Origin: Octopus sinensis
Lineage: Eukaryota
Reading direction: 5' to 3'
Assembly: GCF_006345805.1 (NCBI RefSeq)
Contig: NC_043001.1
Location: 682,001-746,000 of the forward strand
DNA: 64,000 bases
Shown here: one piece after another, positions 1,633 through 38,097 of the stretch
How positions within the stretch are numbered: the first letter of the stretch is position 1
Layout of the letters: each line of letters begins with the position of its first letter
Notes under the pieces: generated by a model
The model's database searches: none
Told to the model about the DNA's origin: nothing
What the model saw: the letters and a program-made list of their open reading frames with translations, nothing else
Translations under genes and position numbers: made by a program

Positions 1633-1670
1633 TCTTTCTGTCGAAGAGCGTAGGCTCGAAACGTAAAAGA
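1633..1670 (+). ncRNA. Minimal type-I hammerhead ribozyme-like motif (core variant CUGUCGA) in a short interspersed repeat spanning ~1600-1770
   Basis: Stem I TCTTT/AAAGA; core CTGTCGA plus extra A; stem II GAGC-gtag-GCTC; GAAA; palindromic stem III ACGT; cleavage-site UA. Related sequence recurs at 5835-5955 (-) and 53700-53790 (-). Confidence 0.7.
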
Positions 1671-1789
1671 CTTTTTCTATTTCTATTCCTGAACGCTATA
1701 CTAATACATTTGTTTGTTTGTACTCCACCTGCCTTCGTCTTTTGTTTATTTTCGTAAACTTTCCTGTTTATATATATATATATATAAAA

Positions 1790-2072
1790 AATTGCAGCGT
1801 GGAGGGTGTTTATAAGCCATTTAAGAAACACACAAAACCGTTAGATTCACTTCAACATTTAAATTTAATTTGGCAAAATATTTTCATCGCTTTGAGACCG
1901 CGACCTATTCACTGGCAAAGCTTCGTGCTGCATCAATAAAGCTTTGTCAGTGAACAGGTCGTGGTCTCAAAGTGACGAAAGTATTTTGACAAATTAAATT
2001 TAAATGTTGAAGTGAATCTAACGGTTTTGTGTGTTTCTTAAATGGCTTATAAACACCTTCCATGCTGCAATT
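1790..2072. repeat. Fold-back inverted repeat with 134-bp arms (1790-1923 / 1939-2072) and 15-nt loop; probable Penelope-like pLTR-type element continuing to ~2125
   Basis: Arms are reverse complements (AATTGCAGCGTGGAGGGTGTTTATAAGCC... vs ...GGCTTATAAACACCTTCCATGCTGCAATT) with scattered mismatches; each arm contains a hammerhead-like fold. Confidence 0.9.
1943..1993 (+). ncRNA. Minimal type-I hammerhead-like motif with G3:C8-swapped core (GUGAACA)
   Basis: Stem I TTTGTCA/TGACAAA (7 bp); core GTGAACA plus extra G; stem II GTCGT/GTGAC; GAAA; stem III A-gtat-T; cleavage-site UU. The mirror copy on the - strand in the left arm has core GTGAATA, stem II GTCGC/GCGAT and palindromic AATATT. Confidence 0.65.
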
Positions 2073-2124
2073 GTTTTCGTTCCAGCACACGATCTCAGAT
2101 CAAGTCACTTGCTATGCAAGTACA

Positions 2125-2197
<73 letters not shown>

Positions 2198-2670
2198 AAG
2201 AAAGAAAGGAGAGGAGAGAAGAGAAGAGGAGAGGAGAGAGGGAGAGGGAGGGAGAGAAGGGAGAGAAAGGGAGATTTGTTAATTCCTTTCAAATCATAAT
2301 TATAGGAAAATAATTCCAACACAAAGGCTCATTAGAAACAGAAAAATAAGAAGGGTTGTTTTCGTCCAGCACAGCGACCGATCTCAGATCAAGTCACTTG
2401 CTATGCAGTACATTCTCTCTCTCTCTCTCTCTCTCTATTATATAATATATATTAGAGAGAGAGAAGAGAGAGAGAGAGAGGAAGGGGAAGAAAGGGAGAG
2501 AAAAGGAGAGAGAGAGGGAGAGAGGGAGAGAAAAGGGAGAGAGAAAGGGAGAGAAAGGGAGAGAGAGAGAGAGTGAGAGAGAGTGAGATTTTGTTAAATT
2601 CCTTTCAAATCATAATTATAGGAAAATAATTCCAACACAAAGGCTCATTAGAAACAGAAACATAAGAGGG
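2071..2670. repeat. Local tandem duplication of a ~290-bp unit (about 2071-2352 and 2356-2670) containing CT/TA/GA microsatellites
   Basis: GATCTCAGATCAAGTCACTTGCTATGCA and TTCCTTTCAAATCATAATTATAGGAAAATAATTCCAACACAAAGGCTCATTAGAAACAGAAA each occur twice. Confidence 0.85.
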
Positions 2671-2954
2671 TGAAAAAGTGAAAAAGCATCTACAGGGATT
2701 GAAAGCATGACAATCTTGGTTTAGAGGAAACTTCCCTGCCTTTTGTTTTATAGTATTTCACATTGTAGAGACACAAGTCCTAAATATGCGGTGCAGGCTG
2801 AGGAGGGGAGAAACAGTAAATTGAACAGAACCTAGCAGATAACTGGTATCTTTTTATCAACTCTCAAAAAGATGAATAGCAAAAGTTGACCCTGACCTGA
2901 TTCTCAATCAAGGATTTGCTGTTGAACTTATAAAGTTTGAGCATATTCATATGC

Positions 2955-2988
<34 letters not shown>

Positions 2989-3028
2989 ATGGGCCAACAG
3001 GTTTTTGGGATATGATGACATGCCATAA

Positions 3029-3155
3029 AGCTAAACCCTTTATGGACAGGAAACCTAACATAATCCCCTTAACTAGTCTTCCCCATTTTTAATATATACT
3101 GCTCTACATCTTAGAGTGTGCTCCTTCTTTCAGATTTGTTTTCTACAAACAATAC
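3029..3155 (+). repeat. Unclassified ~130-bp dispersed repeat (copy 1)
   Basis: Shares CTAAACCCTTTAT...CTTCCCCATTTTTAATATATACTGCTCTACATCTTAGAGTGTGCT...TTTTCTACAAACAATACACAC with 55196-55325. Confidence 0.8.
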
Positions 3156-3167
3156 ACACACACACAC

Positions 3168-4092
3168 GCTGGTGACAAATGGCTTCTTACTCAGAGTTAA
3201 AGGTAGACTGTATGACGCATGTGTGCAAACAGCCATATACTACATGGCAGTGAAACATGGGCCATGACTGCTGAGGACATGCATAAGCTTGTAAGGAATG
3301 AAGTTAGTATGTTCCACTGGATGTGTAATGTCAGTGTGCACACACAACAGAGTGTAAGCACTCTGAGAGAAAAGTTGGATTGAAGAAGCATCAGATGTGG
3401 TGTGCAAGAGAGATGACTGCACTGGTATGGTCATGTATCGCGTATGAATGAGGACAACTGTGTAAAAAAGTGTCACACCCTAGCAGTTGAGGGAAATTGT
3501 GGAAGAGGAAGACCCAGGAAGGCCTGGGATGAAGTGTTGAAGCATGACCTTCAAATGTTGGGCCTCACCAAGGCAATGACAAGTGACCGAGACCTTTGGA
3601 GATATGCTGTGCTTGAGAAAACCTGGCAAGCCAAGTGAGACCATAACCATGGCCTATGCTGCCAGTGCAGCTTAAACAGCCCATTTAAAAGTACCCTTCA
3701 ATCATTGGGCAATAAACTGCGCTTATGAAGACCTATTCAGGCAAGTGAAGTCGTTGTCATGGCCCATAACAGTACCGCTTGGTTGGCACCCATGCCGGTG
3801 GCATGTAAAAAGCACCACTCAAGCATGGTCAATGCCAGTGCTGCCTGACTGGTCCCGTGCTGGTGCAATGTAAAACCCACCATTCAAGCATGATCATTAC
3901 TAGTGCTGCCTGACTGACCCTTGTGCCAGTGGCATTTAAAAAGCACTCCCTACACTCTTGGCGTGGTTGGCATTAAGAAGCGTATCCAGTTGTAGAGAAC
4001 TTACCGGATTGGATTGGAGCCTGGTGCAGCCTTCTGGTTTGCAAGCCCCCAGTCAAACCATCCAACCCATGCCAACATGGAAAGCAGACGTA
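3168..4092 (+). mobile_element. 5'-truncated, decayed RTE-clade LINE (ORF C-terminus plus 3' UTR)
   Basis: Translates RVKGRLYDACV...HGSETW and VEGNCGRGRPRKAWDEVLKHDL; 3' UTR with repeated GTGCCGGTGGCAYGTAAAAAGCAC units shared with other copies. Confidence 0.85.
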
Positions 4093-5353
4093 ATTGCTGG
4101 CCTTGTGAATAAATTAGTAACCCTTATTTATAGTTTGCTTAATCCTCTCTCGAATTTCTCTCAGCAGATTAGTACCATTATTCCTTTATTTTTACAATTC
4201 ATGTATTTGTCTGTTTATCTCTGCTCTTCTCCCTCCTATTAGTTCTCACTTTTTCAGCCTCTCTATTCTTCTAATATTCCTTTACTATCTTCCTTCTGTT
4301 ACCATTTCCCTCCTCCCTCCTCTCTCACCTTCTCCTTCTTTCCGTCTTACCATAACTTCCTCTCTTCTTCCCCAGTTACCATTCTCTCATTCCTAAACCT
4401 CCCTTCCTACAGCTCTCTCCTCTCACCATTCCTCATCTCCCTCTTTTACTATCTTTCCCTCTTGTGTTATCAATCTTCCATCTCCCCCACTCTCTCCCTC
4501 TTGCTTTGATTCACTCCCTCCCTCCTTGTCTTCACAAAATAAATACTTTCTTGGGTCAGACTCCAGTAATTTCAATGTAACCAATGAAAAGCTAGCACAA
4601 CAAAAGTCCCATTTAGCCGCATGTTGTGTGAGTGAAGAACCAGTCACACAGAGAAATATAGGTTGGCAACTAACGATAGCAAAAGCTTTACGTGCAATGT
4701 TACACCAACTAAACTAAAGTAAAGTAAAATCTACATACCAACTAAACTAACCAAAGAAATTACTAAAAATTAACTCAAAACTAACATTGTTCCTGAAATT
4801 AAAGTAACCGCACATGAAAATAGTCATGTTTGGAACTTGCTGCATTCTTCAACCAAATTCTGAAAGTTGGTATTTAATCTATTTATATTTCCAACTGTTA
4901 ATTATGTGCGTGCGCGTGTGTGTGAACATATATATATAGTCTTGTAGCACTAATAATAATGACTCCTGATTAAGGCCCAAGGCCAGCAAGCTGGGGGTGG
5001 GGTGGGCAAGTCAATTACGTCAACTCCAGTACATGACTGGTACTTTATTGTCTTGACTCTGAAAGGATGAGACACAACTAGTGATTTTTTTTCATTAAAA
5101 ATAACGAATAATTATATACAAATACATAAATACAAACACACACACACACACACATATTTGTAAGTGGAGGCATGATTGTTTGGTAGGAAGTTTACTTTTC
5201 AACCATACAGTTTCAGGTTCAGTCCCACTGCACCGTACCTTGGACAAGAGTTTTCCACTTTAGCTCCATGTCCAATTAAAACTTTATGACTTGTGAGTAG
5301 ATTTTGCAGATGGAAACTGAAAGAAGCCAGTCACACACACACACACAAATGTA

Positions 5354-5522
5354 GGTGCAGGAGTGGCTGTGTGGTAAGAAGCTTGCTTCCCAACCACATG
5401 GTTCTGGGTTTAGTCCCACTGTGTGGCACCTTAGGCAAGTGTCTTCTACTATAGCTTTTGGCCAACCAAAGCCTTGTGAGTGGATTTGGCTGATGGAAAC
5501 TGAAAGAAGCCTGTGTATATAT

Positions 5523-5571
<49 letters not shown>

Positions 5572-5798
5572 ATATATGATATGTATGTTTTTTTGTATGT
5601 CTGAGTTTTGTCCGCCATCATCACTTGACAACTAATGTTGGTGTGTTTACGTCCCTGTAACTTAGCAGTTTGGCAAAAGAGGCTGATAGAATAAGTACTA
5701 GGCTTACAAAGAATAAGTCCTTGGGTCGATGTATTCGACTAAAGACAGTGCTCCAGCATGGCTGCGGTCAAATGACTGAAACAAGTAAAAGAATAAAA
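5354..5798 (+). mobile_element. tRNA-derived SINE family A, full length with internal (TA)n; degenerate copy just upstream at ~5165-5330
   Basis: Pol III-like head GGTGCAGGAGTGGCTGTGTGGTAAGAAG...GGGTTTAGTCCC; body and 3' end (GTGCTCCAGCATGGCTGCGGTCAAATGACTGAAACAAGTAAAAG) match 43836-44300 and 60769-61150. Confidence 0.85.
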
Positions 5799-5834
5799 GA
5801 AAGTATGTGTGTGTGATATATATATGCATAGCTG

Positions 5835-5955
5835 AAATTTATAGCAAAACAAAAGATGAAGATAGGTGTATGAACAGCAAGAAAGTGTATTAGTTTGATG
5901 CTTGGGAAAAATGAAGAAATCTTTAATGTTTTGAGCCTGACTCTTCAGCAGAAAG
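5835..5955 (-). repeat. Decayed copy of the 1600-1770 hammerhead-bearing repeat
   Basis: The - strand reads CTTTCTGCTGAAGAGTCAGGCTCAAAACATTAAAG, a degenerate form of CTTTCTGTCGAAGAGCGTAGGCTCGAAACGTAAAAG; the adjacent ACAAAAGAYGAAGRYAGGTG...TGTATTAGT is also shared. Confidence 0.7.
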
Positions 5956-6069
5956 GAATAAAATAAAATAAAAGAGAGAGAAAAAAAAAGAAAAGATGAA
6001 AAAATATATATACACTGGGTACGGATGGTATTTGTTTGCAATTTTGGACAACTAATTTTAATCATATTT

Positions 6070-6470
6070 TTTTTACTTTCATTTCCTTCTTAAAAATAAC
6101 CATTTTTATTTTATCTTGTTGCAGAATAATTGGCTATAGAAAGTTTTGAACTCCCCAATGCATGGAAGGGGCATGGAATCCTCCTTGGAATCCATTCCAG
6201 AAGGACAAACAAGGAGATTTCAGACTTCCTCAATGTCAACAGAAGGACAGTGAAAAAGGTCAGAAAGAGTTGGAAGATTCAGAATTTGACCACAAGGTGG
6301 CAGCAGAGAGGAAAAGCCATGATTGATGATCTGATGCCATGTGAATGCCAGAATTCCTTGATGAAATCCAGGAGATCGTCAGCTATGATCTCAAAAAGTC
6401 AATGTGTTGATTGCAGGGTAGAAAGATGTGGATGAAAAGCACATCGGGCTGGTGGAAAACTCAGGCCTGG
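6070..6470 (+). mobile_element. Tc1/mariner-superfamily transposase N-terminal (HTH) remnant, likely DD37D/maT-type
   Basis: WKGHGILLGIHSRRTNKEISDFLNVNRRTVKKVRK resembles a Tc1-type HTH; truncated by the adjacent RTE copy. Confidence 0.55.
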
Positions 6471-6501
6471 TTGTCAGAGAATTTCTTTGAACACACAGCA
6501 T

Positions 6502-7174
6502 CTGGTATGGCCATGTACTGCGGATGGATGAGGAGAGATGTGTGAAGAAGTGCCGCTCCCAAACAGTTGAAGGTATCAGGGAGAGAGGTAGACCCAGGAA
6601 GACATGGGATGAGGTAGTCAAGCATGACCTCAGAGCGTTAGGCCTCACAGAGGCAATGACGAAGGACCAAGATCTCTGGAGATATGCTGTGACTGCAAAG
6701 ACCCAGGCTGCTTCCTGCACCAGTTCTGCATAGCCCCAGCCCATTCAAAGTACCTTGGATTTCAGAACAACCCGCTGTGCTTGAGGAGACCTATTGAGTC
6801 AAGTACATGAACATCGAAATAAATATCAATGGAAATAGTAGCTGTGATACCTGTGCCGGTGGCACGTAAAAGGCACCATCCGAATGTGGCCGATGCCAGC
6901 GCCGACTTGACTGGCTTCCATGCCGGTGGCACGTAAAAAGCACCATCCGATCGTGGCCACTGCCAGGCTCCCCTGGTACCTGTGCCGGTGGCATGTAAAA
7001 AGCACCCACTACACTCACGGAGTGGTTGGTGTTAGGAAGGGCATCCAGCTGTAGAAACACTGCCAGATCAGACTGGAGCCTGGTGCAGCCTCCTGGCTTC
7101 CCAGACCCCGGTCAAACCGTCCAACCCGTGCTAGCACAGAAAACAGACGTTAAACGACAACGATGATGATGATG
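6502..7174 (+). mobile_element. 5'-truncated RTE LINE (same family as 3168-4092)
   Basis: WYGHVLRMDEERCVKK...RGRPRKTWDEVVKHDL; 3' UTR with three internal repeat units; ends GACGTTAAAC...(GAT)n. Confidence 0.9.
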
Positions 7175-7517
7175 TTTATAAAACATCCACTTTTCCTTGC
7201 TTGGTTGGGTCTGATGGAATTTGTTGAGGGAGGTTTTCTGCAGTTGGCTGCCCTTCCTGTCACCAACCTTCACCTAGTATCAAGTAAGGTGATATTTCTC
7301 CATGGCCAGACATGTTTTTATGGAAGAGTGGAAACAAAGGACACTGATTATATGATGATGATACTCATTTGCAACTATCATGTGATGTCCAGACAAGAAA
7401 ACACTAATACATTCATACACCCCACCCCATACTTACACACACAACATTAAGATAAAAGATGGAGAATTGCACATCTACAAAACTTGTTTATTACAGTGAT
7501 ATATACGTACATGTGTA

Positions 7518-7553
<36 letters not shown>

Positions 7554-7802
7554 TATGTATATGTAAAGGAAAAAAGGAATACGAAAAATAGTTCAAGAAT
7601 GCAAAGCATCCAGACAGCTGCTACAAAAAAGGGACAAGAAAAAACAAGGACGGGTCATTTGGAGTTTTCTTTCCTCTGTCGAGTTCCAGATTATCTATAT
7701 CTATATATATCCATATCTCTCTCTATATATATATGTATAGAGAGAGAGAGAGAGAGAGAGAGAGATGTATGTATGTATATGCATGTATTGATACACACAC
7801 AC

Positions 7803-7955
7803 ACGATGGGCTTCTGTTAGTTTCCCCTCTACCAAATCCACTGAAAAGACTTTTGTTGGCCTGGGGCAATAGTAGAAGACATTTGCTCAAGCTGCACAAC
7901 AGTGGGGCTGAACCCAAAATCAAGTGGCTGGGAAGTAACGTTCTCACCCACACAA
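7803..7955 (-). mobile_element. SINE family A 5' half
   Basis: Reverse complement matches the head/body of 5354-5515. Confidence 0.7.
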
Positions 7956-8389
7956 CCACAGAAAGACAAATAATGAGAACAAGCAGCAAAACAACATAGT
8001 GAGAAGAGGAAAGGCAGCCGCAAGATTGGTTTTCAAGGTACCAGACTTTGGCAAATCATAGAAAGGTAGCTATACTCAAGTATTACACATTAGTGAAATA
8101 CTTGCAAAAGAGTAAATTGTAGTAAAGGTTCTAACCCTAACCCCAACTCAGCTGAATATAGTTTGGTAAAATGGCTGTTTGGATGACAGGAAGAGAAAAG
8201 AAAACAATGCTACAGTATGGGCCAAAAGGACTGAGATATTTGGTGGTTGCTTCAATATTTGACATTGTTGCAAGAATGATTACTGGCAGAAGGTACCAAA
8301 ATCATGACCTTCCCACCACCCAATCGACAACTGATGCTAGAATCCTACAATGCGAGCTTTATGTTAAATGTAATCTCAATCTCATAAAT

Positions 8390-8745
8390 CTAGGAACATG
8401 GCTGCGAGGTTAAAAAGCTGGACTTGCAGCCACGTACTTTTGGATTCAGTGTAGTACCTTGAGCAAGTTTCTTCTGCTATAGTCCCAGAGTGACAAAAGC
8501 CTGGTGAGGGAATTTTATTGATGGAAATTGTAAGCAAGCTCATTGTGTGTGTGTGTGTATGCCTTTGTGGTTGGGTTATCTTTGTTCCCTCACCACTGCC
8601 TTATAGCTGGTGTTATGTTCCCATAACTTAGTGGTTCAGCAAAAAGAGACTGATATAATTAATACTGGACTTTAAAAAACAAACATTTCAAGATGGTGCC
8701 CCAGCATGGTCGCAATCCAATGACTGGAATGAGTAAAAGATAAAA
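8390..8745 (+). mobile_element. Degenerate SINE family A
   Basis: GGATTCAGT...GGCAAG-like body and GTGCCCCAGCATGGTCGCAATCCAATGACTG 3' end. Confidence 0.6.
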
Positions 8746-9939
8746 AAAATAAATAAATCTCCCCTTTGTCTTCCGTTCTTTCAGGGTTGATAAAGTACCA
8801 GTCGGGAACTGGGTTTAATTTATTTCTCTGTTTCCTTTTATGAATGCACTGTGAGAAAAGTGTGGGGGACAACTTTCCTTCATGGCTGGCCACTTCTATT
8901 CAATCACACTGGAGTGGGATGAATGAAGATCATTGAGGGTCCATGCTACAGGAAGAGGACGATATGTATTTATTGTAGAGATTCCTCTTGCTTATCGCAA
9001 GATTGGTTTATAAAATGTGACACTAAGGCTGTAACTGCTATGAATTCAACCCTAACATGGAAAGTTTTCAGTAGAAAGAAAAGAAAAAAAGAAAACAATT
9101 GTAAGAAAATGATTTCGAGTGTTAAAGTGTAGAAATAAAAGAGAAGAAGGAATTGAAAAGTGCAGTAAGGTGAGAAAAGTATCTTTGATAGTTTGAATAT
9201 CTTTGATGAGAAAATAAAAACGAGAAATGTAAGGAAAGATGAAGAAAAAAAGCATTGAATATTTGTCTGCAACGCAAAAAGGAAAGGATGACTTTGTAAT
9301 TATAGAGACAGGATTCTGTACGGAAAGAGAATAATTTTGATCGTACTCAAATCAATTTATGCATTTTAAATCTATTTAAAATATGTGTCTATCAATATAA
9401 TAAAAAAATAATGGAGGAAAACATTGTAATTTTGAACTATAAAGAAAGCATATTATCTATGCATTTATTGCCTGTCAGGCAACTGGGAGATTTTTGTGAG
9501 AACGAGAGTAGAGTCTAGAACCCATAATAGTACTTAGAAAAGTATTTATTTTATTAATCCCAGTGGAATAGAGTTATGAAATTTTAAATCTTAATGCAGT
9601 AACAGTAAAAGCTAGCAGACAGAAAGAGCAAGGAGAGAAACTGATAAAAACAATCATTTTAACCCTCTACTGTTCCAACAACTGCACACCTTTTTATTTA
9701 TTTATTCTTACTAGAACATGTACTTGGGAATAATTTCTCTCCAGTCTTCTTTGAGTGTGAGCTGGTAACAAATGAAAATTCCATTTTGTATCAAGCAATA
9801 TTTTAAGCCAACAATGGAACTTTGACATAATCACACAACCTGAGAGAAATCTTTCTCTAATCCCAGCCAAGCATCTTAACAACAACAAAAATAAATAAAA
9901 AAGACACAAATATAATAATCTGAGATACAATGGTGACAT

Positions 9940-10140
9940 GGAAAAAGCACCAGTGTTGGTGCCACATAAAAAGCCTCACTCTGTAAAGTGGTTGGCATTA
10001 GGAAGAGCATCTGACTATAGAAACCATCCCAATACAGACGAGGGGAGCCTGGTGCAGTGCTGCAGCTGGCCAGTTCCTGCCAAACAGTCCAACCCATGCC
10101 AGCATGGAAAACAAACATTAAATGATGATGATGATGATCA
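9940..10140 (+). mobile_element. RTE 3'-tail-only fragment
   Basis: GTGGTTGGCATTAGGAAGAGCATC...CCAACCCATGCCAGCATGGAAAAC...(GAT)n. Confidence 0.7.
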
Positions 10141-10240
10141 TCATAACACTATGTTGGAATAATGATGGGGTGGTCATGTCTGGAACATTTTTCATAATTG
10201 ATCTACTCAATCAATACTGATCTAGCTTAAATAAACCTCA

Positions 10241-12691
10241 CAGTACAAGTGCACCACTATATGAGTAAATTACTGTTATGAGCTGAGGCTCATGTGAATT
10301 TTTGTCTTGAAGTATGAGTTTCATACAAGTGGCCACTGGCGGGAACTGAACTCGCACACACTCTCCCAACAAGTGCAGCCTCCGTTCACTCAATTCATGT
10401 GTTTATCTTGTGGCAGCATCCCCTGTTGTGTTTTACCCAGTGTTTTTGTTTAGTTTTGTGCATTTTTGCTATTATTCTACAATAATTAGTTGTGTTAGCC
10501 GTGGCTTCTGAGAAGGTGAGTGCAAAGGACAGTACTGAGAAGAAGAAAAAAGCTGATTACGATAAAACTGAAGAAGGAAATCGTTGATAAACATGAGAGA
10601 GGAGTGAGTGTAGTGGACGTAGCACATCAATATGACCGAGGCACGTCAATGACCTGCACTGTCCTGAAGAGAAAGGATGAGATCAAGGCCATTACAACAG
10701 CAAATGGTGTCTCCAGGCTATCTAATCACAATGCACTTCTATCCATGAAAGGATGGAAAAATTGCTTCTCTTGTGGAGCAACAAGAAGCAACTCACAAGG
10801 GATACAATTGTGGAGACCCTCATCTGCAAGAAAGCACAAGTGCTGTATGGGGATCCCCTGATGCAGAACACTAGAACATCGATGGAGGGGATATCAGCAG
10901 AAACATTGAAAGCCAATTGTGTCTGGTTTTATAATTTCAAGAAGACTGGTGTTCATAGTGTCATCAAATATGGAGAAGCAGCAAGTTCTGACACAAAGGC
11001 AGCTGAATATTTCAGGGAGCTGAATTCCATCAGCTCATCACTGCCGAGGGGTATATCACACAACAGGTTTTCAACTGTGATGAACTGACCTTTTTTTCGA
11101 AAAAAATGCCCAGAACTGACATAACTGTAGAGGGGGGAAAATGCCAGGCCACAAGCGTATGAAAGATAGGCTAACTTACGCCCTTTGTGCCAATGCAAGT
11201 GAAAACCAGAAGATTAAGCCACTCTTTGTCTACCATTCTGAAAACCTGTGAGCATTCATATCACACAAAACATGTTAAGCAACACTAATAATAAATCAAA
11301 AGACATAAAAATAGACAATCCTTTCACGATTTTATAGATATTAGGAAAGGATGATGCTATGATGCAAGGCGTTTCCATCATTTTGTCGAAAACATTAAAT
11401 GTAAAGAATATTTTCATTGTGCCAAATGCAAAATAATTGTCACTGCAGGTTATGTGGAGGGCAAACGTTAAAGCCTGGGTCACCAGGCAATTCTTCTCTG
11501 AGAGGGTCAACCTTATCTTTGGACCAGCAGTGAAAAGTACTTTCTAGAGAACAATCTTCCTCTCAAGGCCCTCCTCATCCTCAATGTTCTTGCTCACCCT
11601 CCTAACTTTGAAGATGATATTCTGGACGAATTTAAATTTATAAAATTTCTGTACCTTTCACAACACCTTCCTTATCTTGCAGCTCATGGACCAACAGGTG
11701 ATTTGTAATTTCAAGAAATTCTACACCAAACATCTGTTTCATCAGTGTATTGAAGTCACCGAAAATACAAATCTAACCCGTCGTGAGTTTTGGATGGAGT
11801 ACTATAACATTGTAAACTACCTGAAAATCATTGATATGGCTTGGCAGGGTGTAACGAGAAGAACACTGAATTTTGCATGGAGGAAACTGTGTCCTGACTG
11901 CATATCTGGAAGAGACTTTGGGGAGTTTGAGTCTGAGGCTCCTGTAGTCTCTTGGCAAGTCCATGGGCATTGAGATTGATGATGGGGACATTAACGATCT
12001 TGTCGAGGAACACTCAGAGGTGCTGATGACAGAGGAACTCCTGCAGCTTTGGAGGCAGCAGCATTTGGATGCATTTGGATGAGTGTAGCAGAGAATGCTA
12101 TCTCTGCAAGTGACACAAAGGCAGTGTCAGCAGAGTAGCAGCAGGTTTCTGAATTTGTAGAAAAATATCATCCCGAAAAAATAGCTACAGGTCGTGCAGT
12201 TAGTTTATTTAATGACACTGCTCTGCTGCATTTTGAAAGGCAGGAAAAAGCAGACTTCCCTTGATATGTTTCTAACGAAGCAACTTGCAAAGGTAAAAAG
12301 TAAAGAAAATGTGTCCAAAAAGCCTAAATTAAGCAAAGTGAGAAAGAAAACATCAGAAATTGTTCTTCCTGAAACCCGAATGGAAAGAGATTCTCCAGTC
12401 ATCCTCCTCCTCACTCTATCGTCTTCCTCTTGCACAAATCGTCCCATTTTTTAGGTAATTCAGTTAATAAAACCAGTTTACATATTTCTTTTGCATTCTC
12501 TTTTTTTATAATTGTCATTTTACTTGTAACTACACCTTTTCTGTGTTAAAACCCATAAAAAATTATTTCTGGGTGGCTTGTAGGGGCTGGAATGGATTAA
12601 TTATATTTTTGTTAATTTCACTGGGGGAAACTGATTTGTAAAATGAGTTTGGTCATGGAACAAATTGAACTCGTACTGCAAGGCATCACTG
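10241..12691 (+). mobile_element. Tigger/pogo DNA transposon with frameshifted TIGD1-like transposase pseudogene (~10500-12400)
   Basis: CENP-B-type HTH (KKLITIKLKKEIVDKHERGVSVVDVAHQY); MEKLLLLW, GEAASSD, MPGHKRMKDRLT...ANAS, VMWRANVKAWVT and LQLMDQQVICNFKKFY motifs; ends ...GGCATCACTG. The 5' boundary is approximate. Confidence 0.9.
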
Positions 12692-15102: not shown

Positions 15103-15136
<34 letters not shown>

Positions 15137-18247: not shown

Positions 18248-19402
18248 TAGAGGTTATGAGAGGTAATGGTGTCAGGTAATGCAGAATAAGTGCTATGGAT
18301 AGACCATACTTAAGCTCCAGATTCGGTGATTATGCAAATAGGGAGTCCAACATAGGTCATATATCAGCGTGTGTGTATAAAAATTTTTTACATAATGAGA
18401 TAAAAAAAACCAAGGCTGTGTAGGTTTTAGAACATTTATAAATAGAAGGTCTTACAGCTGTTTCTAGGATATTCATTAAATCCCTTCATTGGAGACAGTG
18501 TGAGAAGATAGTTAAGCAATAGTTAATTTAGATAAGATACGAAATGGAGAGCGAAGTGTAGGAATGAAAATAGATGTGAGATATGCAGGGATATTGTATC
18601 TGCAGATCCATTATTTAGACAGAATGGTATACATATAAGATTCCAATACCTTATGAGTAAAATCCCATGGTATTTAAAATTGGTCATTCCAAGTATAGAG
18701 TTTATACACAGTACTATTGAATCAAGGGTTTTATTTAAAGTAACCTAAAAGTAGGGGATGTATTAGTAAGGTCAAATTGAAAACAGGAAGAGAGGAATAA
18801 AGAAAGAGAAAAAAAGAGAAAAAAGAGGGAGAAGAGAAAAGAAAGAAAAGAAAATAAGAAGAAAAATAAAAGAAATAAAAAAGAGGAAAAACAGGAAGAG
18901 AGGAATAAAGAAAAGAAAGAAAAAAGAAAAACAATGAAGAGATAGTAAGGGAAAGTGTACTAGTTAATGGTCAGTGGAGATAGTTTGAAAGTAAGAATGG
19001 GGAGATAAGGACCTTACTAATACATCCCCTACTTTTAGGTTACTTTAAATAAAACCCTTGATTCAATAACACTGTGTACAAACTCTATATTTGGAATGAC
19101 CAATTTTAAATACCATGGGATTTTACTCATAAGGTATTGGAATCTTATATGTATACCATTCTGTCTAAATAATGGATCTGCAGATACAATATCCCTGGAT
19201 ATCTCACATCTATTTTCATTCCTACACTTCGCTCTCCATTTCGTATCTTATCTAAATTAACTATTGCTTAACCATCTTCTCACACTGTCTCCAATGAAGG
19301 GATTTAATGAATATCCTAGAAACAGCTGTAAGACCTTCTATTTATAAATGTTCTAAAATCTACACAGCCTTGGTTTTTTTTATCTCATTATGTAAAAAAT
19401 TT

Positions 19403-19405
<3 letters not shown>
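18248..19405 (-). mobile_element. Penelope-like fold-back element: 396-bp inverted arms (18378-18773 / 19010-19405), 236-bp purine-rich spacer, unpaired tail 18248-18377
   Basis: Arms are near-perfect reverse complements (about 7 mismatches by eye); each carries a hammerhead-like fold; the tail recurs at 53540-53695. Confidence 0.85.
19287..19334 (+). ncRNA. Minimal hammerhead-like motif with mutated core (CCAAUGA); identical mirror copy at 18449-18496 (-)
   Basis: Stem I GTCT/AGAC; CCAATGA plus A; stem II GGGAT/ATCCT; GAAA; palindromic stem III ACAGCTGT; cleavage-site GUA. Confidence 0.6.
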
Positions 19406-25550: not shown

Positions 25551-25559
25551 CATAAGGTC

Positions 25560-26898: not shown

Positions 26899-26929
<31 letters not shown>

Positions 26930-26930
<1 letters not shown>

Positions 26931-29413: not shown

Positions 29414-29559
29414 TCCCAGTCTAGAAAATATTAGAGACTTTATGTTTAAGATGAAAACTGAAGACACTGTCTGGAAAGTTGGGAGAGTTCAGTGTGCAGA
29501 AGACGAAGGGTTGTGGGGTCTTTTGCCAGCTTTTCAGCCCTTTGTTGCCAGGCTGGATT

Positions 29560-29754
29560 TGTGTTGTGAGTGTGTGTGTGTGCAAGTGCGGGCGCATGTG
29601 TTTCTGTGTGTGCATGTTGTGTGTGTATGTGTGTGTGTGTGTGTATGTGTGTGTGGGTGGGTGTTTTTTTGTGTGTATGGTGTGTGTGGTGTGTGTGCAT
29701 GTGTATGTGTGTGTGTGTCTTTCTCTGTATGTGTGTGTGTGTGGTGTGTGAGGT

Positions 29755-29795
<41 letters not shown>
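29560..29795. repeat. Imperfect (GT)n microsatellite
   Basis: Seen directly. Confidence 0.95.
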
Positions 29796-29798
<3 letters not shown>

Positions 29799-30405
29799 AG
29801 ACTCTGTCATATTCTGTACTGCAAGATTAATCTCTTGTGGCTTATAAAGAAAAAAACTACTGCTACTACTGCTACTGCTACTACTTCTACTGCTACTGCT
29901 GCTGCCACTGCTGCTGCTGTAACCATTATTACTACTACAATATCCTGTTGGAGATGGTGCTTTGAAGTGAATGATTTATCCTGTGGAAACATTATCACTC
30001 TGCGACCCTGAATATAAGACTTCTCCTGCCTTCCATGTCCCTCTTTGAACTGAACTCCATGTCCCCTCCAGATGGGCACACCTCTGGCAAACCAGCCCTT
30101 CTTTTTTCATGATGTCATTGTTATTGTTTTCTTATTTATTTCATCTTGTCCTCCTTACCCACTCCCATTACCCTTGTGGCAAATAAAGAACTTTATCATT
30201 ATTATTATCATTATTATTATTGCTATTATATAAAATTTCTACCAGACAAGAACCATATCAATAGAATAGAATGCTTGATTATTTCAGTTGCAGATTCTCT
30301 GACTTCAATGAAAGTATTCATTTGGAATGATTTTTGCATTTTTAATTAAATTTTCTCATTTGTTTACTATTATCAACATCATTATTGTTATTACTATTAT
30401 TATTA

Positions 30406-30440
<35 letters not shown>

Positions 30441-30716
30441 GTTATTATTATTTAAAGCTAACAAAGCTTCTAAAACACTTGGCTGAGCAATTTCTTTGTC
30501 TTTCTCTTGCATTTGTTGTTGTTGTTATTATTATTATTAATTATGTGTATATGTACATGTTTGTTTTCATTATTATATTGCCTGAAAAGGAGGTGGTGGG
30601 TGACTAAGTGGGGTGTTTGTGCATCTATTAATTTTTGTTATTTTTCCTGACATGAGATAGCATGCACAATAATAACAATCACAAATACAAACACACACAC
30701 ACACACACATATGCAT

Positions 30717-31002
30717 ACTAGTTGTGAATGAGGGGTGCAGGGTAGCACCTACATTGCTAGAAATAAGAGCTAAAAGACACTGACTGTCACAGTAAGCACA
30801 TTTTCATATACTGATGGGGGCGGGGAGATAACCCCCTCCACCAGCAAGCAAGATCCCTATACCATAGTTTTGTTTGAAAATTACAAACTCATCAGTAGTG
30901 ACTACTCCATCATATAAAATGTGCTTACCACAGCTGTAAGGGCTCTTTAGCTCTTATTTCTAGCAATGTAGGTACTACCCTGCACCGTCGGTCACTATTA
31001 GT
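30717..31002. mobile_element. MITE-like element with long imperfect inverted termini
   Basis: GGTGCAGGGTAGCACCTACATTGCTAGAAATAAGAGCTAAA (30734-30774) vs TTTAGCTCTTATTTCTAGCAATGTAGGTACTACCCTGCACC (to 30986); inner pair GTAAGCACATTTT / AAAATGTGCTTAC. Confidence 0.75.
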
Positions 31003-31071
31003 GACAACTGTATTTTTCCTTGTTGGTTTTATATTGCATAAACCCACCTTCATTATATAAAAGGAAAATCT

Positions 31072-31455
31072 TAAACAAGTACATCATCCATACAAGTCAA
31101 GTACATCAACATCAAATGGAAATTGTAGTTGTGATCCCCGTGCAGGTGGCACATAAAAAGCACCTTCTGAATGTGGCCGATGCCAGCGCCACCTTGACTG
31201 GCTTCCATGCTGGTGGCACATAAAAAGCACCAACTGATCATGGTTGTGGCCAGCCTCCTCTGGCCACTGTGCCAGTGGCACGTAAAAAGCACCTACTACG
31301 CTCTTGGAGTGGTTGGCGTTAGGAAGGGTATCCAGCTGTAGAAACACTGCCAGATCAGACTGGAGCCTGGTGCAGCCTCCTGGCTTCCCAGACCCCAGTC
31401 AAACTGTCCAACCCATGCTAGCATGGAAAACAGACGTTAAACGATGATGATGATG
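31072..31455 (+). mobile_element. RTE 3' UTR-only insertion
   Basis: Close match to 6795-7174 including three internal units and the (GAT)n tail. Confidence 0.85.
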
Positions 31456-31699
31456 AAATAGTGAAGATGTTAATAATAATAATGATGGTCACTCGCATCA
31501 ATTTTGATGTATGAGTGTTTGAAAGAGAGGAATTCAAGTTAAAGAAGAGGATGAAGAAAAAGGGAAAAAAGGAAAACAACTTTTAAAAGAATAAAAAAGG
31601 AACACTAAGAAGCTGCATCTGTTTGTGATGGATGCGTGAATGTAATTTGGATCAAGGGATGGATTTGCTATGAAGTCACAATGAGGATGTTGAGGCGTT

Positions 31700-33350
31700 T
31701 GCCTGAGATTGGCTAAATGTGTCTGTTGGTTGCAGGATATACTTCTTCTATTGTTCATTTTCTTCAACTCAAATTGTTTGGATGCATCGTGACACATTTT
31801 ACGCCATGCAGATCAATCTCAGCAATGACTCTCCCCAGATGTCAGGTTAAGCTGCAGAGATTTTAGGGATTGCTTCAATTTATCCTTATACCAAAGAAGA
31901 GGTCTTCCTTTGCCACAATATCCCTCCACTTGTTGGCCACATAAAAGAATTTTTGGAATGCAGTCATTTGTCATTCAAACAACATGCCCTACCCATCTGC
32001 ACTGAATTCCTGTCAGCATGTTTTGGATGCTGGAGATATCCCATTTTTCTAAGATTTTTACATTGGATATTTCATCTTGCCATTTTAAGTTGCATATGTT
32101 GTGCAAACAGCACATGTGGAAGGTTTCAAGTTTCTTTATATATCTGTAGTAGGGATTCCATGCTTCTGCCCCAGAAAAAAGTGTACTCAAAATATAAGAT
32201 TTGTATACACGTATTTTAGTTTTCAGACTGACATCATTTCCATCCTACAAATGATGGCCAAGTCTTCCAAAAATACTTGTAGCCTTAGATATTCTAACAT
32301 TGATTTTTGTCATCAAGTGTACTCTTCAAGTTCACAGTACTTCCAAGATATTAAATGACCTGACCCATTTGAGTGGCATGTTGTTTATCATTGCATCTGA
32401 GTCTTGAGTATGTCCTGCCCCAGGCCTTGGTTGGAATAGAACTTCAGTTTTCTTGATGCTGTCAGTTCAAATGCACAAGCTGCCACAGCAAAGCTGTTGA
32501 CCATTTCCTGAATTCCCTCAAATGTGTGAGAAATCAGAGCACAGAAAGTCATGCAGGATCTCTTCCTTGGTTTTTTTCTTTGATTTGAAACTTTGCTCTT
32601 TCAGGTTTAAAAGATCTCTTTCTGTGCGAAACTGGAATTTTATGCCTTCATGTTAATCCCTGAAAGCACGTTGGAGCATCAGTGAACAAAATATGGAAAA
32701 AAGTACAAGGGCTAAGACATGTCCTAGTTTGGTTCCAGTGGCAACAGAAAATGCCTCTGAACATTGGTTACTAGACATCACTGTTGCCATCATTCTTTAT
32801 GCAGGGATACTTGTCATTTTATCTGGAAGTTCAGCTTTTGACACAATTTTCCAGAGCTCCTCATGTATCAAAGGCTTTGGTCAAGTCAACAAAGACCATG
32901 GACAAGTCAGTGTTTTGTTCATGTGCTTTCCTTTGAACTTGTCAAATATCATGTCTGCTGTGCCTCTCCTAGCCTGAAATTTACATTGCGATTCAGGATA
33001 CATGCTGTTTATTACATGTTTACTGATGAGGTTATGGATCACCCCTGAAAGAATTTTTCCAGCTGTGCATGACAAACTTATTCCCCTGAGATTATCCCAT
33101 GCACTTTTCTTTTCCTTGCTTTCATACTGTGCATTGTAGATGCATCTTTGAACTGCTGGGGAACAGATCCAGTTTCCCGGATCAATTCGTGCAGCTTACT
33201 TGCAAGCTGTCTGCCACCAGGCTTCTTCATCTCTATGGCAGTTCTATCTTGTCCAGGAGCTTTACCATTGGAAAGTTTATTGATAGCAGTACTTATCTCT
33301 TTCAAGGAAGGATCTTCTGCTAGTTCTTCAATTATAGGCCATTGAGGGAT
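31700..33350 (-). mobile_element. Decayed RTE-clade LINE, reverse-transcriptase region
   Basis: EISTAINKLSNGKAPGQD; AGKIL...PESQCKF...RGTADMIF; LFSGAEAW...IKKLETFHMCCLHNICNLKWQDEISNVKIL...RWVGHV; multiple frameshifts. Confidence 0.9.
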
Positions 33351-36300
33351 TTCAGTGATTACTTGAAGATCAGGGTCCTTATAATACCAATTGGTATAAT
33401 AATAATAATGATGATGATGATGATGATGAAGAAAATAAAAATATAAGTAAAAAAAGTCAAATCAAACCGTATAAGATTGAGACAGAGAAGCATTGACAGC
33501 AACAACAGTAATTTAGTAATAATAACAACCACCACAAAAGCAGTCATTGGAGTTTTGATGAAGAAGAATATAAATAAGGACAATAACAACATCAATAATG
33601 AACAATATCAACAATATTGAGAATATGGAAATAACTAATTGCTAATAACAATATCATTAGCTGTATGGTGGTAGTGGTGGTAGTGATAGTTGTTATTTAG
33701 GGTTAGGTCAACATCGATCAATTAGATCTGTGTTCCAGTTCTTCCCATGACCATCATGTCTTAGAACTCCATTAACATTTCTGTTAAACATTAAATACTG
33801 TAGTTTATATAATCCTCATGTTATTTCTTTGAATAAAGGCATTCCAGTCATGACTAACCTATCATTTTAGGGGTTGTGTAGAGGACTGCATTATATGAAG
33901 TGTGTCCTTCCACTTTTTAAGATGGTGGAGTGAGATTTGGTTAGTCTTTTTGAAATGTCGAGTGACCACAAGGAGGTTACCCCCAAAAGTTGGTTGTAAA
34001 GGATGAGTAATGGTGGTATTTAGTCTTAAGTCAGAACAAATCAACCAGACATGTGATCAAAAGGATTCCAGCAATGACCAAGTATGATTTGAGGGAGATT
34101 TGGCTGCTATTACCAGTGGGTCAAGTATTCATGTAAAGGCACCGTTGCTAGCTTGTTAAGTATGGCTATAAAATTAGGATCAATTAAATTGACTGTTTTG
34201 CACAACTCTAAAACTTAGTGGCCCAGAGAACATGAGAGTTAGAAATTATTCAGTGAGAGAGGCTGATAGAACAAATTAATTAATTACTTTTTAACTTATT
34301 AACCAGGGGACATGAAAAAAGCTAGCAAGAAATAATTATGCGATGTGGTAATAAAATTAACAAACAAAAAATAAAACAATATCAGTCAATGGCAAAATAT
34401 TCTAGCTTTCATTTTTTTTTTTATTCAGAATCAATCAAATAAAAAAAGTATCAAATATTGGTTTTAATTTAATCCACCATATCTTCCTACAAATCTGTGA
34501 CTCTCTGCTAATGGCAGAAATCAATATTATGTTAATTAGTTCTGCAAATAAAGGAGGCAACTACTGCCATGTTTCTGCATTATTATGAACTCATCAGTAA
34601 AAACAAGCCAAAGTAGGAATAAAAGAATCAATGCATAAATGTCTAAGAATATACATTGGTTGGTGTAGACAAACAGAATTGTTCAGAAATTCAAAAACTC
34701 AGAAACACTATCATCCTTACAGTATTAAGTTTTGAAGCATCTTTGTTCTGTGTTCAAATCCTGCTTGGAATGACTTTCTCATTCATCCATGGTTTGATAA
34801 AAGAAGTGTTTTTATTTCTTTGCTTCTCATTCTTTTAAACCAGTTTGGGTTTGATAGGTTTTTTTTCAGAACAGCTTCATCTTTAACAGGAGTCACTTCT
34901 ATCAACAATAATTAACTACAAGGAAATGAAAGTAAATCTCTCTTGGATTCTAAGTATTGCAGTCACTTGATCAGCCCAAATGGCTTTCCCATCATGCTTT
35001 AGTGCAGCTGGCCGAGTACTCCACAACCACTCATACCTTTACAATATATGTGACAAGCTTTCACCTAGTTTCTGTTGACCCTATTTCATTCACAAGAATT
35101 GGGGTGAGGTAACAAACAGCTGCTGTGTGGGGTCTAACCAAAAATCTTATTATTGTTAAATTCCCTAATCACTTAGGGTTGTCTATAGCCATCAAAGTTA
35201 TTATAGACCAAGGGTCTCACTAAATTTGATTATGCTGTTGTCATTGTTGTTGTTGGAACACAGATTCCAGGCCAGCCTTGATTGACCAAAGCCTCTTCCT
35301 TTCAAGAGAGTTTAGCACTGAGGTATACCCTATTCAATACCTTTCTTAAAATATAGAATGTGATATGAGGGAGATTTGGGTGCTATTTCTGGTAGGTTAA
35401 GCAACCACATACATCAATCTTTGCTGTTGTTACTATTATTGTGGTCAGATAAATGCTTTGCAGCATTTCTCCTGGGTAATTATGTCCTAAATTCAAATCT
35501 CACTGGGGTTAACTTTGCCTTTAATCCCCCAGGGGTCAGTAAAATAAAGACCCAGTGAGGTACTGAGGTCAGTGTATTTGACTAAGCTCCCCTCCCTGAT
35601 TTCTGACCTGCTTAAATCATAACCTAATATTATTGTTGTTGCTGTTGTTATTTCTGACTCTCTTTTGTCAATGCTGGCCTTCATCCTCATCAGCTTCTGT
35701 ACATATTAAACCTGTGTGGGTTTGATAGGTCCAACAGCACAGCATACTGCTACCAACCTTATGTCAACTAACTTGTGAAACCCATCATCCTCAAATTCAA
35801 TCTCATCTCATCTCTTCTGGGTATCACACTGGATACGATGATGATGATGATGATGATATTGATGTAGGTCAGTCCTAAATAAGGAAATCTATAGTCAACA
35901 GTATTTCCAGCCATGACTACCCTGTGCTTTTCTTCTGCATGTAGGACTCAATGTGTTTGTCACTTCCCTAGAAAGCAGGGTATAATGAATTGTAGGTATT
36001 ATTTGGCTGCTATTTTTAGTAAGTCAAATGATCATGTAAAGGCCTTCGTGCATTCTTGATGATGATTATAATGATGATGGATATGCTGTACAAAACAGGG
36101 ACATCAACAGCAGTTACAAGAACAGCAATAACAGTTAGAACATTAAAACCATCATCATCATCACCAGCAGCACCACCACCAACAACAACAACAGTAAATA
36201 GTGAGGTAGAACGCCAGTTGGGCTGTCATTCTTCATCAAAGTAATATCACAGATTCTAGAAGCTTCTATACTTGCTTCTATGTATGAGAGAGGAACAATA

Positions 36301-36719
36301 AGGGAAGAATTAATTAGTTGACAGGAAATTAACTTCCACAATCTTTTATTTCCATTCCTCTTCCTCTCTCTCTCTCTCTCTCTCTTCCAGAACACAATTT
36401 TCCCTTCTTTTAATCAATTTACTCTCAAATCCTTCAAATAATATTTCAGTCTACCATTTTCTCCATAATTCTAGATTTTATTTAGGTTCCATTCACTTCA
36501 AGTACAGTTCATCTCTCTCTCTTTCTTAATCATCTCTCCATCCACTCCGTTCTATTCTATCATCTCTCCAAACCTTCTTTTCAACATTATCTTCCTCTTG
36601 TCTCTCTCTCTCCTCTCTTTCTCTATCCTTTTTGGAACACATACACTTTCACTCACTTTCCATCTATATCTTCCTTCCCCTTTCTTTATAAGTATTCTCC
36701 CCCACATATCTTACCCCCT

Positions 36720-36839
36720 CTCTCTCTATCTACCTACATATCTATCTATCTGTCTGTCTGTCTGTCTATTTATCTATCAACCTATCTCTCTCTCTCTATC
36801 TATCTATCTATTTATCTCTCTCTCTATCTATCTATCTAC

Positions 36840-36890
<51 letters not shown>

Positions 36891-36908
36891 CCTGTCTATC
36901 TATCTACC
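36720..36908. repeat. (CT)n/(CTAT)n microsatellite
   Basis: Seen directly. Confidence 0.95.
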
Positions 36909-38052
36909 TTCCATTGGTTTTTACTCTTTTAATATGATTCTTTATTTCCTTTCCTCTTCATCACTTCTCCTCTCTCCCTCACCCTCTCCACCCACTCCCA
37001 CCCACACTAACTCCATTTCTGGAGTTTTCTTCATTTTTTCTCTTCAAACCACCTTTCCTTCCCCCATCCCCCACCCCACAGTCTACCACTCTACACCCTG
37101 CCCTACCCTGACATGGAAGTTACTCTTTTTTCCTTCAAAAATTATTCACCAAGGTTACTCACCCCTCGCCCCACCGCAGCAGCAGCAGCAGCACAAAGAA
37201 AAAACAATGTTTAAAAACAAAAAGCCCCACCCACTATCCTCTCCCTACCATACTGGAACCCTTATTCTTTGCCAAGATCCTATCCAGAAAAGGATATCCG
37301 AGGAAATATTGATAGGCTATGACAGTGACTAATTAAGCTAATTAAGAGGTTAATAAGTCAATAGAGTTGGATCTTTAATGAGTCAAGAAGGATATTATTG
37401 GAAGTTTGGGTTGGAGGAATTCAGTAAAAGATCTTTGTTCCTCAGAATTTCTATTTGGTGGTTAACTGGGAACATTAAGGGACAGCCAGGAGACAGGCTA
37501 TAAAGAGGAAATCATGTATGAGTGTGTGTGTAGGTGGGTTCGTGACCGGAAAATATGTTTACATTTTTAAAAACGTATATATAAACAATCATAACTAGAT
37601 AAATATATTTGTCACATACCTGTGAAAAATATAAGAAATAGAGATAGATAAAATGAATAAATAAATAACTAAATCTATATAAAAGGCATGTATACGGACA
37701 AGATACGAAGTGAACCCGTTCACTCACACAAAGACACACAGAAGAGAAATTTCACAGATAGCCTCAACAATATCCACAATATGAATAACAACAACAGCAG
37801 CAGTAGGGACAATGATGATAATAACAGCAGCAACAACTACCATGATGAACAACCCCATGGATGAACACACAAGCACAGAGGGATACAAGAACTGTACCAA
37901 AGTTTTGGGTCTTAGGACAGCTACAGCACAATGGGGTGAGAGGAAGGTGGTGAGGGGAAGGCCATACTGCTGCTACGAACAATGACACACACAAACATGC
38001 ACATGTATGCACATGCACACAATGTCCCTTTACAATTTTGTTTAAAGCAAAA

Positions 38053-38097
38053 GTATTGCTGAAGAGGTCACAGATGTGTGACGAAAGATTTCCACAC
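38053..38097 (+). ncRNA. Hammerhead-like motif with canonical core
   Basis: CTGAAGA (38059-38065) plus G; 6-bp stem II GTCACA-gatg-TGTGAC; GAAA; short stem III; UC site; stem I is weak or eroded. Confidence 0.6.

What the first reader, a model, noticed from the sequence alone, without database searches (positions are those of the whole stretch)
1633..38097. At least four different short repeat families each carry a minimal hammerhead with a palindromic stem III
Seen: folds at 1633-1670 (stem III ACGT), 1943-1993 (AATATT in the mirror arm), 19287-19334 (ACAGCTGT) and 38053-38097 (not quite palindromic), plus a decayed copy at 5920-5955. All have one extra purine after the core, but their flanking sequences look unrelated. 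Established: Penelope-like elements and retrozymes carry minimal type-I hammerheads whose palindromic stem III allows dimeric cleavage. Inference: this genome hosts a diverse system of non-autonomous ribozyme-bearing retroelements with core variants (CUGUCGA, GUGAACA, CCAAUGA, CUGAAGA), with no PLE reverse transcriptase visible in this window.
Basis: partly seen in the sequence, partly recalled or inferred. Interest (0 to 1): 0.75.

Follow-up and report, generated by a model that had tools for sequence, protein, structure and literature searches.

The report
Penelope retrotransposon ends carrying variant hammerheads
These folds are the leftover tail ends of four abundant families of Penelope-type jumping genes, each carrying a small hammerhead RNA motif predicted to cut itself, a known arrangement, although two families have fixed unusual letters in the catalytic core that would likely weaken cutting.

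Summary
The folds are real and exceed chance (4 hits against 0.075 in shuffles). Each belongs to a high-copy repeat family whose majority sequence keeps a minimal type-I hammerhead. Elsewhere in the genome all four families continue upstream into a sense GIY-YIG endonuclease, three also into a reverse transcriptase core. They show inverted arms, (TA)n flanks and, where tested (F2, F3), two fixed 3' ends. They are 5'-truncated ends (pLTRs) of Penelope-like elements, not retrozymes; many such families per genome were described in 2014. Corrections: CCAAUGA is CpG decay of CCGAUGA; the 38053 copy has lost stem I; 5920 is a dead relative of the 1633 family. Real, family-fixed variants are U6 (13,318 exact genome matches, position 7 free) and the G3-C8 swap, which covaries with C3-G8 in sister families. 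F2 copies span the cleavage site and stop at a sharp 5' wall, often with an extra G. Cleavage is untested. The scan noted the G3-C8 swap before, in this genome and in others; the link to coding elements was tested here.

The parts
1589..1775 (+). F1: 5'-truncated 3' end (pLTR) of a Neptune-like PLE, ending in (TA)n
   Evidence: 94% to L029, which carries the endonuclease about 810 nt upstream of the motif
1633..1670 (+). F1 hammerhead: core CUGUNGA with U at position 6 (1641); predicted cut between 1665 and 1666
1787..1934 (-). F2 inverted arm, ending at the inner 3' site (about +125); hammerhead 1919-1869 with decayed core
1939..2128 (+). F2 sense arm with the extra tail (outer 3' site, about +180)
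1943..1993 (+). F2 hammerhead: swapped core pair G3 (1950) - C8 (1955); predicted cut between 1986 and 1987
2356..2395 (+). duplicated fragment of the F2 tail
5830..5991 (-). decayed older relative of F1; hammerhead remnant 5956-5920, GAAA and palindrome lost
18250..19010 (-). F3 inverted arm (3' UTR, hammerhead 18496-18449, and the long tail at about 18250-18378)
19010..19405 (+). F3 sense arm of a Hydra-like PLE, ending at the inner 3' site
19287..19334 (+). F3 hammerhead; family core CCGAUGA, here G5 decayed to A; stem III ACAGCUGU
37550..38210 (+). F4: 3' UTR remnants and pLTR of a Nematis-like PLE (the upstream part matches only in patches)
38053..38098 (+). F4 hammerhead, canonical core; stem I broken in this copy
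53431..53658 (.). further F3 end fragments (short inverted pair plus tail), no hammerhead core
53702..53789 (-). further fragment of the older F1 relative, downstream of the hammerhead

Best explanation
The folds are minimal type-I hammerhead motifs in the terminal repeats of four Penelope-like retrotransposon families, and the window holds their 5'-truncated ends, likely copied by each family's own reverse transcriptase-endonuclease from RNA that had not been cut. Shown: each family continues upstream into a sense GIY-YIG ORF at other loci; copies come as inverted arms, next to (TA)n, and in F2 and F3 stop at two fixed 3' sites; F2 copies span the cleavage site and none begins there. Inferred from the Anolis element studied in vitro: the protein nicks AT-rich DNA and starts reverse transcription at two internal RNA sites 100-190 nt past the hammerhead, and most events stop early. 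The hammerheads are kept by selection on the source elements and would cut slowly, as dimers through the palindromic stem III or with the element's protein; U6 in F1 and G3-C8 in F2 are tolerated core changes predicted to lower the rate.
For: Links to ORFs: F1, 2 independent loci with the endonuclease 764-811 nt before the motif, one with RT as well. F2, 10 of 16 endonuclease-selected 10-kb loci have a sense F2 end downstream; L392 has inverted arm, RT core, endonuclease and sense end. F3, 10 of 30 UTR-selected loci have the endonuclease C-terminus upstream and L202 a broken RT as well. F4, 3 of 30 loci (L095, L103/L209, L099/L211). Insertion marks: inverted arms; (TA)4+ just past the end in 24, 14, 17 and 9 of 30 loci against 141 of 717 background windows; F2 3' ends at +120s in 26 of 72 and +180-190s in 35 of 72; F3 long tail in 9 of 30. 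Selection on the fold: between F2, F4 and F5, 6 of 12 pairs change on both sides, the 3-8 pair and stem III among them. In F1 only position 7 varies strongly, in runs of four organism labels, and in the most distant run the motif alone keeps depth; 13,318 exact matches, 0 for the reversed control. F2 G3 in 77 and C8 in 71 of 83 copies. Literature: PMC4209133, PMC11167929, PMC8557442.
Against: No cleavage data. No intact ORF was found for F1-F4 themselves; intact frames were seen only in relatives. F1 and F3 partner fragments have no Pfam hit, and the F5 ORF scores under both cut-offs. F3's assignment rests on motifs read by eye; tblastn to other families gave E>=1.6. One F1-type endonuclease copy with 887 nt of room has no motif behind it (L241); 6 of 16 F2 loci have no sense end. 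F4's (TA)n share (9 of 30) is little above background, and no RT core was seen for F4. The rows were picked by core motif and stand for three families, so there are few independent events. F2's fixed 5' end is not what random truncation gives.
Confidence: 0.88

Rival explanations
1. F2 (and perhaps short F1) copies come from a short transcript with a fixed start about 22 nt before the core: either the pLTR promoter's capped RNA, copied from the initiation sites of the upstream repeat, or a separate short non-autonomous master that borrows the family's protein.
For: 28 of 30 exact-pattern copies lack the upstream UTR. None of 30 copies picked by their 3' end goes past -22 and 8 stop at -18 to -22. 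Of 23 short copies that reach the AG at the wall, 15 have G where 46 of 50 long copies have C (p about 1e-6 if independent), as cap copying would give (recalled property of RTs).
Against: The same subfamily also occurs with the long UTR (L246, L247; 186 exact matches to the junction). A shared master would give the same G, so copies may not be independent. The wall also looks like a 3' splice site (branch point, pyrimidine tract, CAG), but no shared first exon was seen.
Confidence: 0.4
2. They are non-LTR retrozymes: ORF-less hammerhead units spreading through circular RNA.
For: Most copies are 150-400 nt and carry no ORF; earlier notes report retrozyme arrays in this genome (unchecked).
Against: No short-unit head-to-tail arrays in 120 loci; colinear endonuclease ORFs upstream in all four families; no F2 copy starts at the cut site.
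Confidence: 0.05
3. The F1 motif is a catalytically dead hammerhead kept for another job (protein binding, RNA pairing, promoter DNA).
For: U6 in 34 of 36 F1 rows (3 of them refetches) while a sister family keeps A6 in 11 of 12; a natural A6C variant is slow (PMC3088659); hammerhead mutants do not impair insertion in vitro (PMC11167929); a young family with intact frames has C9.
Against: The other core bases, the free position 7, H17 never G in the intact rows and the palindrome follow catalytic rules, and the 3-8 pair covaries.
Confidence: 0.25
4. The folds are chance matches in AT-rich repeats.
For: A loose descriptor gives 3 hits against 1.9 in shuffles; Rfam finds nothing.
Against: 4 against 0.075 with the tuned descriptor; family conservation, covariation and position behind PLE ORFs.
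Confidence: 0.01

Closest known systems
Minimal type-I hammerheads in pLTRs of metazoan Penelope-like elements (Cervera and de la Pena 2014, PMC4209133)
   Same: Type-I layout, short palindromic stem III, unpaired base between positions 9 and 10.1, several families per genome, mostly single motifs in truncated copies, opposite-strand pairs 100-700 bp apart. The Acropora Neptune row of their Fig. S3 is close to F1.
   Different: None of the 56 rows of Fig. S3 has G3-C8, U6, C4 or C9; their descriptor required the standard core, so this absence is partly by construction. They report U3-A8.
Poseidon element PAc of Anolis (Frangieh et al. 2024, PMC11167929)
   Same: Two internal initiation sites giving the optional tail, AT-rich targets, uncut RNA as template; the laboratory C3G/G8C double mutant partly restores cleavage.
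   Different: There the swap is an engineered mutant; here it is the family majority. There the hammerhead overlaps the ORF start; here no upstream pLTR-ORF junction was found.
Neptune, Nematis and Hydra clades (Craig et al. 2021, PMC8557442)
   Same: F1 partner: DKG, long CX4CxxC linker (Neptune-like). F2/F4/F5: short CX4CxxC linker (Nematis-like). F3 partner: CxCX5C, no CC between GIY and YIG, CxxC and CxH near the end (Hydra-like).
   Different: Assigned by eye, no tree. F3 shows DKA, not DKT. F5 has DKS and about 69 extra residues between RT3 and RT4, where the paper says C-terminal-endonuclease PLEs have no insertion.
Metazoan non-LTR retrozymes (PMC7229834, search listing only; bioRxiv 10.64898/2026.07.22.740005, first part)
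   Same: Type-I hammerheads in repeats related to pLTRs.
   Different: Retrozymes are ORF-less tandem units; these families are dispersed ends of coding elements.

Membership tests
Minimal PLE hammerhead (min-HHR) | Type-I layout with stems I and II around the core strands | tested here: met
   Family majorities of F1-F4; covariation. Window copies at 38053 and 5920 have lost it.
Minimal PLE hammerhead (min-HHR) | Standard core CUGANGA or U3-A8 | tested here: inconclusive
   Met by F4; F3 has C4, F2 G3-C8, F1 U6. The 3-8 pair is kept in all four.
Minimal PLE hammerhead (min-HHR) | Unpaired base between 9 and 10.1; G10.1-C11.1 | tested here: met
   F1, F2, F4. F3 has the extra base but also an unpaired base before GAAA.
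Minimal PLE hammerhead (min-HHR) | Short palindromic stem III | tested here: met
   ACGU, AAUAUU, ACAGCUGU, AGAUUU with G-U pairs.
Minimal PLE hammerhead (min-HHR) | Self-cleavage as dimer or with protein | not testable with these tools
   Only contigs were served.
Penelope-like element, C-terminal endonuclease | RT followed by GIY-YIG, motif in the 3' repeat | tested here: met
   F1 L207, F2 L392, F3 L202 (broken frames). F4: thumb and endonuclease only (L209).
Penelope-like element, C-terminal endonuclease | Inverted 5'-truncated arms | tested here: met
   F2, F3, F4; none listed for F1 in its 30 loci.
Penelope-like element, C-terminal endonuclease | Optional tail from two 3' ends | tested here: met
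   F2 and F3; not measured for F1 and F4.
Penelope-like element, C-terminal endonuclease | Full pLTR-ORF-pLTR copy with an intact frame | tested here: inconclusive
   Not found for F1-F4 in the loci fetched; intact frames in relatives.
Neptune / Nematis / Hydra clade | Clade by RT phylogeny | not tested
   Motifs compared by eye with the text and Figs S1-S2 of PMC8557442.
Non-LTR retrozyme | Head-to-tail units, each with a hammerhead | tested here: not met
   No short-unit arrays in 120 loci; a 1.28-kb F2 duplication holds flanking DNA.
Non-LTR retrozyme | No coding capacity in the family | tested here: not met
   Colinear endonuclease ORFs in all four families.
Non-LTR retrozyme | Circular RNA | not testable with these tools
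   No raw RNA reads served.

The most novel reading that the evidence does not exclude
Penelope hammerheads in this genome are held as a fold while their cores drift into states that should cripple a free ribozyme (U6 in over 13,000 copies across several species, G3-C8, C9 in a young family with intact frames). They then act as protein-gated or non-cutting RNA switches, and the mass of solo ends arises when the enzyme copies the capped 5' end of the element's own RNA from the upstream repeat, leaving a cap-derived G. This would be a natural mutant series for the open question of what PLE hammerheads do.
Probability: 0.25. Interest if true: 0.65.

Novelty: new variant of a known kind. Interest (0 to 1): 0.33.

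Why it matters
The arrangement itself is known and expected in an animal genome rich in Penelope elements. What adds value is the set of family-fixed core variants in one genome (C3-G8, U3-A8, G3-C8, C4, U6, C9), each tied to a coding family, some with intact frames. The role of these hammerheads is unsettled, since cleavage was dispensable for insertion in vitro, and this series allows a direct test. It also shows that standard descriptors and Rfam miss very abundant motifs, and that short hammerhead repeats should be walked upstream before being called retrozymes.

Tried and rejected
Rfam: no hammerhead listed. Loose-core scan: not above chance. The repeat finder was swamped by microsatellites and useful only for the F3 inverted pair. 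The first 30 GIY-YIG loci did not carry F2-F4 as their own ends; the links came from walking upstream. A Neptune-type endonuclease near F4 locus L105 and an F1-type RT near F3 locus L200 were dropped as neighbours, not partners. A recurring sequence after F2 ends proved to be a host repeat carrying an F2 insertion, not an ORF start. A shared first exon for short F2 copies was not seen. Minimum-energy folding gave stems I and II but no clean hammerhead dimer for F1, F2 or F4, so it says little. Expression: no RNA holder listed; only contigs were laid, which cannot show ends or strand. The protein atlas gave no verdict. Literature on natural G3-C8 or A6U: searches found only engineered G3-C8; Lunse et al. 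(about PLE hammerhead variants cleaving as dimers) and a 2012 review were not held, so these variants may be in print there. An A6 control count for the F1 pattern was not run.

Full report
Setting. The window is G000:C5:682001-746000 of a 2.72-Gb genome, 30-45% GC and rich in microsatellites. Its long frames look like DNA-transposon and LINE remnants (read by eye). Earlier notes call the genome an octopus; I did not test that.

Observation. All five stretches are present. With at most one core mismatch and stems of 4 bp or more, the window gives 2 hits against a mean of 0.025 in 40 shuffles; a looser setting gives 3 against 1.9. A descriptor tuned afterwards finds 4 (1638, 1950, both arms of the 18378-19405 inverted repeat) against 0.075, maximum 1, in 200 shuffles; it misses the 38053 copy (stem I broken), the 5920 copy and the F2 mirror arm. 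Rfam lists no hammerhead (150 of 329 rows seen; 0 in 4 loci).

Families. Each stretch has hundreds to thousands of genomic candidates (465, 2358, 2913, 2271; lower bounds). The majorities of 30 loci each keep the fold. In copies not selected on the window copy: F1 has U6 in 34 of 36 rows (3 are refetches) and all four bases at position 7; F2 has G3 in 77 and C8 in 71 of 83; F3 is CCGAUGA in 21 of 34 and CCAAUGA in 3, so the window's G5A is CpG decay; F4 is CUGAAGA in 6 of 7. A 27-letter F1 pattern with U6 and a free position 7 has 13,318 exact matches and the reversed control 0. In contigs of four runs with four organism labels, the listed differences inside the F1 core strands are position 7 and a minor change at position 4 in one run, and in run X20 depth is confined to the motif. 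For F2 no other letter is listed at G3 or C8 in four runs, at a 10% threshold. Both lays favour sequences near the reference. Between F2, F4 and the young sister family F5, 6 of 12 pairs change on both sides, including 3-8 (G-C against C-G), stem II and stem III; rows were picked by core motif and represent three families, so these are few events.

What the families are. The genome has many GIY-YIG ORFs, some in frames of about 780 residues with an RT. F1: the endonuclease ends 811 and 764 nt before the motif at two independent loci, one with a broken RT upstream (tblastn E 1e-53 to a relative); a third copy with 887 nt of room lacks the motif. F3: walking upstream gave the endonuclease C-terminus in 10 of 30 loci and a broken RT in L202; its motifs match the Hydra description, but Pfam and tblastn give no support. 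F4: endonuclease remnants in 3 of 30 loci, one as an inverted arm with the thumb region. F2 looked ORF-less until a longer upstream form was found (186 exact matches); this led to an endonuclease, and 10 of 16 endonuclease-selected 10-kb loci have a sense F2 end downstream, L392 with inverted arm, RT core and endonuclease. F2 and F4 proteins are each about 50% identical to the intact F5 ORF. No PLE ORF lies in the window.

Insertion marks. Inverted arms are common in F2, F3 and F4. (TA)4+ follows the end in 24, 14, 17 and 9 of 30 loci against 141 of 717 background windows. F2 ends fall at +120-129 (26 of 72) and +180-190s (35 of 72); the F3 long tail follows the end in 9 of 30. In both window pairs only one arm has the tail. 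Of 30 F2 copies picked by their 3' end, 22 begin before the predicted cut site (+37), none begins at it, and none passes -22. Of 23 short copies reaching the AG at this wall, 15 have G where 46 of 50 long copies have C.

Mechanism. Shown: colinearity with coding elements, insertion geometry, copies spanning the cut site (F2), conservation and covariation of the fold. Inferred from PMC11167929 (passages and section 3 part 2): nicking of AT-rich DNA, two internal initiation sites, uncut template, protein-assisted cleavage, partial activity of C3G/G8C. Inferred from PMC4209133 (parts 1-2 of 4 and supplement parts 1-2 of 3) and a review (PMC6765202, passages): slow dimeric cleavage through stem III. 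Inferred from PMC3088659 (passages and section 8): a change at A6 slows cutting. Untested: cleavage of any motif here, and the origin of the F2 wall (capped start, short master or splice site).

Against. No intact ORF for F1-F4; weak or no Pfam support for partner fragments; F4 without RT core; clades by eye only; no RNA evidence could be obtained.

Known and new. Many min-HHR families per genome, mostly in truncated PLE copies, were described in 2014, molluscs included. PLE expansion in an octopus is reported without mention of ribozymes (PMC13282606, passages). G3-C8, U6, C4 and C9 are absent from the 56 rows of Fig. S3, whose descriptor required a standard core; my searches found G3-C8 only as an engineered change (also PMC3884650, passages). 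The most relevant paper (Lunse et al.; title seen in a reference list) was not held, and bioRxiv supplements were not seen. PMC8557442 was seen as passages, section 11, a supplement search and one supplement part; the retrozyme preprint as part 1 of 5. The scan noted G3-C8 before, in this genome and others; sequence look-ups for F1 and F2 returned nothing.

Verdict. Real hammerhead motifs in the ends of ordinary Penelope-like elements; new variants of a known kind; interest 0.33.

Noticed in passing
L374:3249-5969 (+), also L375-L377, L354-L373: Young Nematis-like family (F5) with open frames of 880-910 residues; 133 residues between RT3 and RT4 against 64 in the Neptune-like ORFs, an insertion not expected in C-terminal-endonuclease PLEs; DKS motif; hammerhead core CUGAUGC (C9 in 22 of 25).
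   Followed up: partly
L151:4861, L152 minus 4765, L156 minus 5473, L164 minus 2846, L153:5935, L152:8920, L167:1689: At least seven more hammerhead families in this genome: three with U3-A8, one with C4/U4, three canonical, all with palindromic stem III; one canonical family is a sister of F1 with A6.
   Followed up: partly
L304:1500-1546 and other long F2 copies: The F2 5' wall coincides with a branch-point-like word, a pyrimidine tract and CAG, like a 3' splice site just before stem I (as in D. virilis Penelope), and also resembles an initiator; F1 has a similar TCAG about 70 nt before its core.
   Followed up: partly
window 2042-2128 (+) and F2 copies: An ATG about 90 nt past the F2 core opens a frame that runs to the element's end in full-length copies; it could be the start of the next ORF in a tandem, but no continuation was found.
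   Followed up: partly
L256, L257, L266, L270, L271: An older F2 copy sits inside another repeat that then spread with it; the same downstream context recurs many times among the 100 listed matches.
   Followed up: partly
L207:900-4700: PLE ends stack: a Neptune-like element, then an F1 element, then an F2 end, each in the (TA)n tail of the one before.
   Followed up: no
window 61663-63330 (+): LINE-type RT remnant in two frames; not a Penelope RT.
   Followed up: no
window 6130-6432, 10520-11970, 47872-48228: Remnants that read like Tc1/mariner and Tigger-type transposases (by eye).
   Followed up: no
window 18378-19405: The two F3 arms are 98% alike yet about 8% away from other copies and share the G5A decay, which suggests both were copied from one decayed template or were homogenised.
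   Followed up: no
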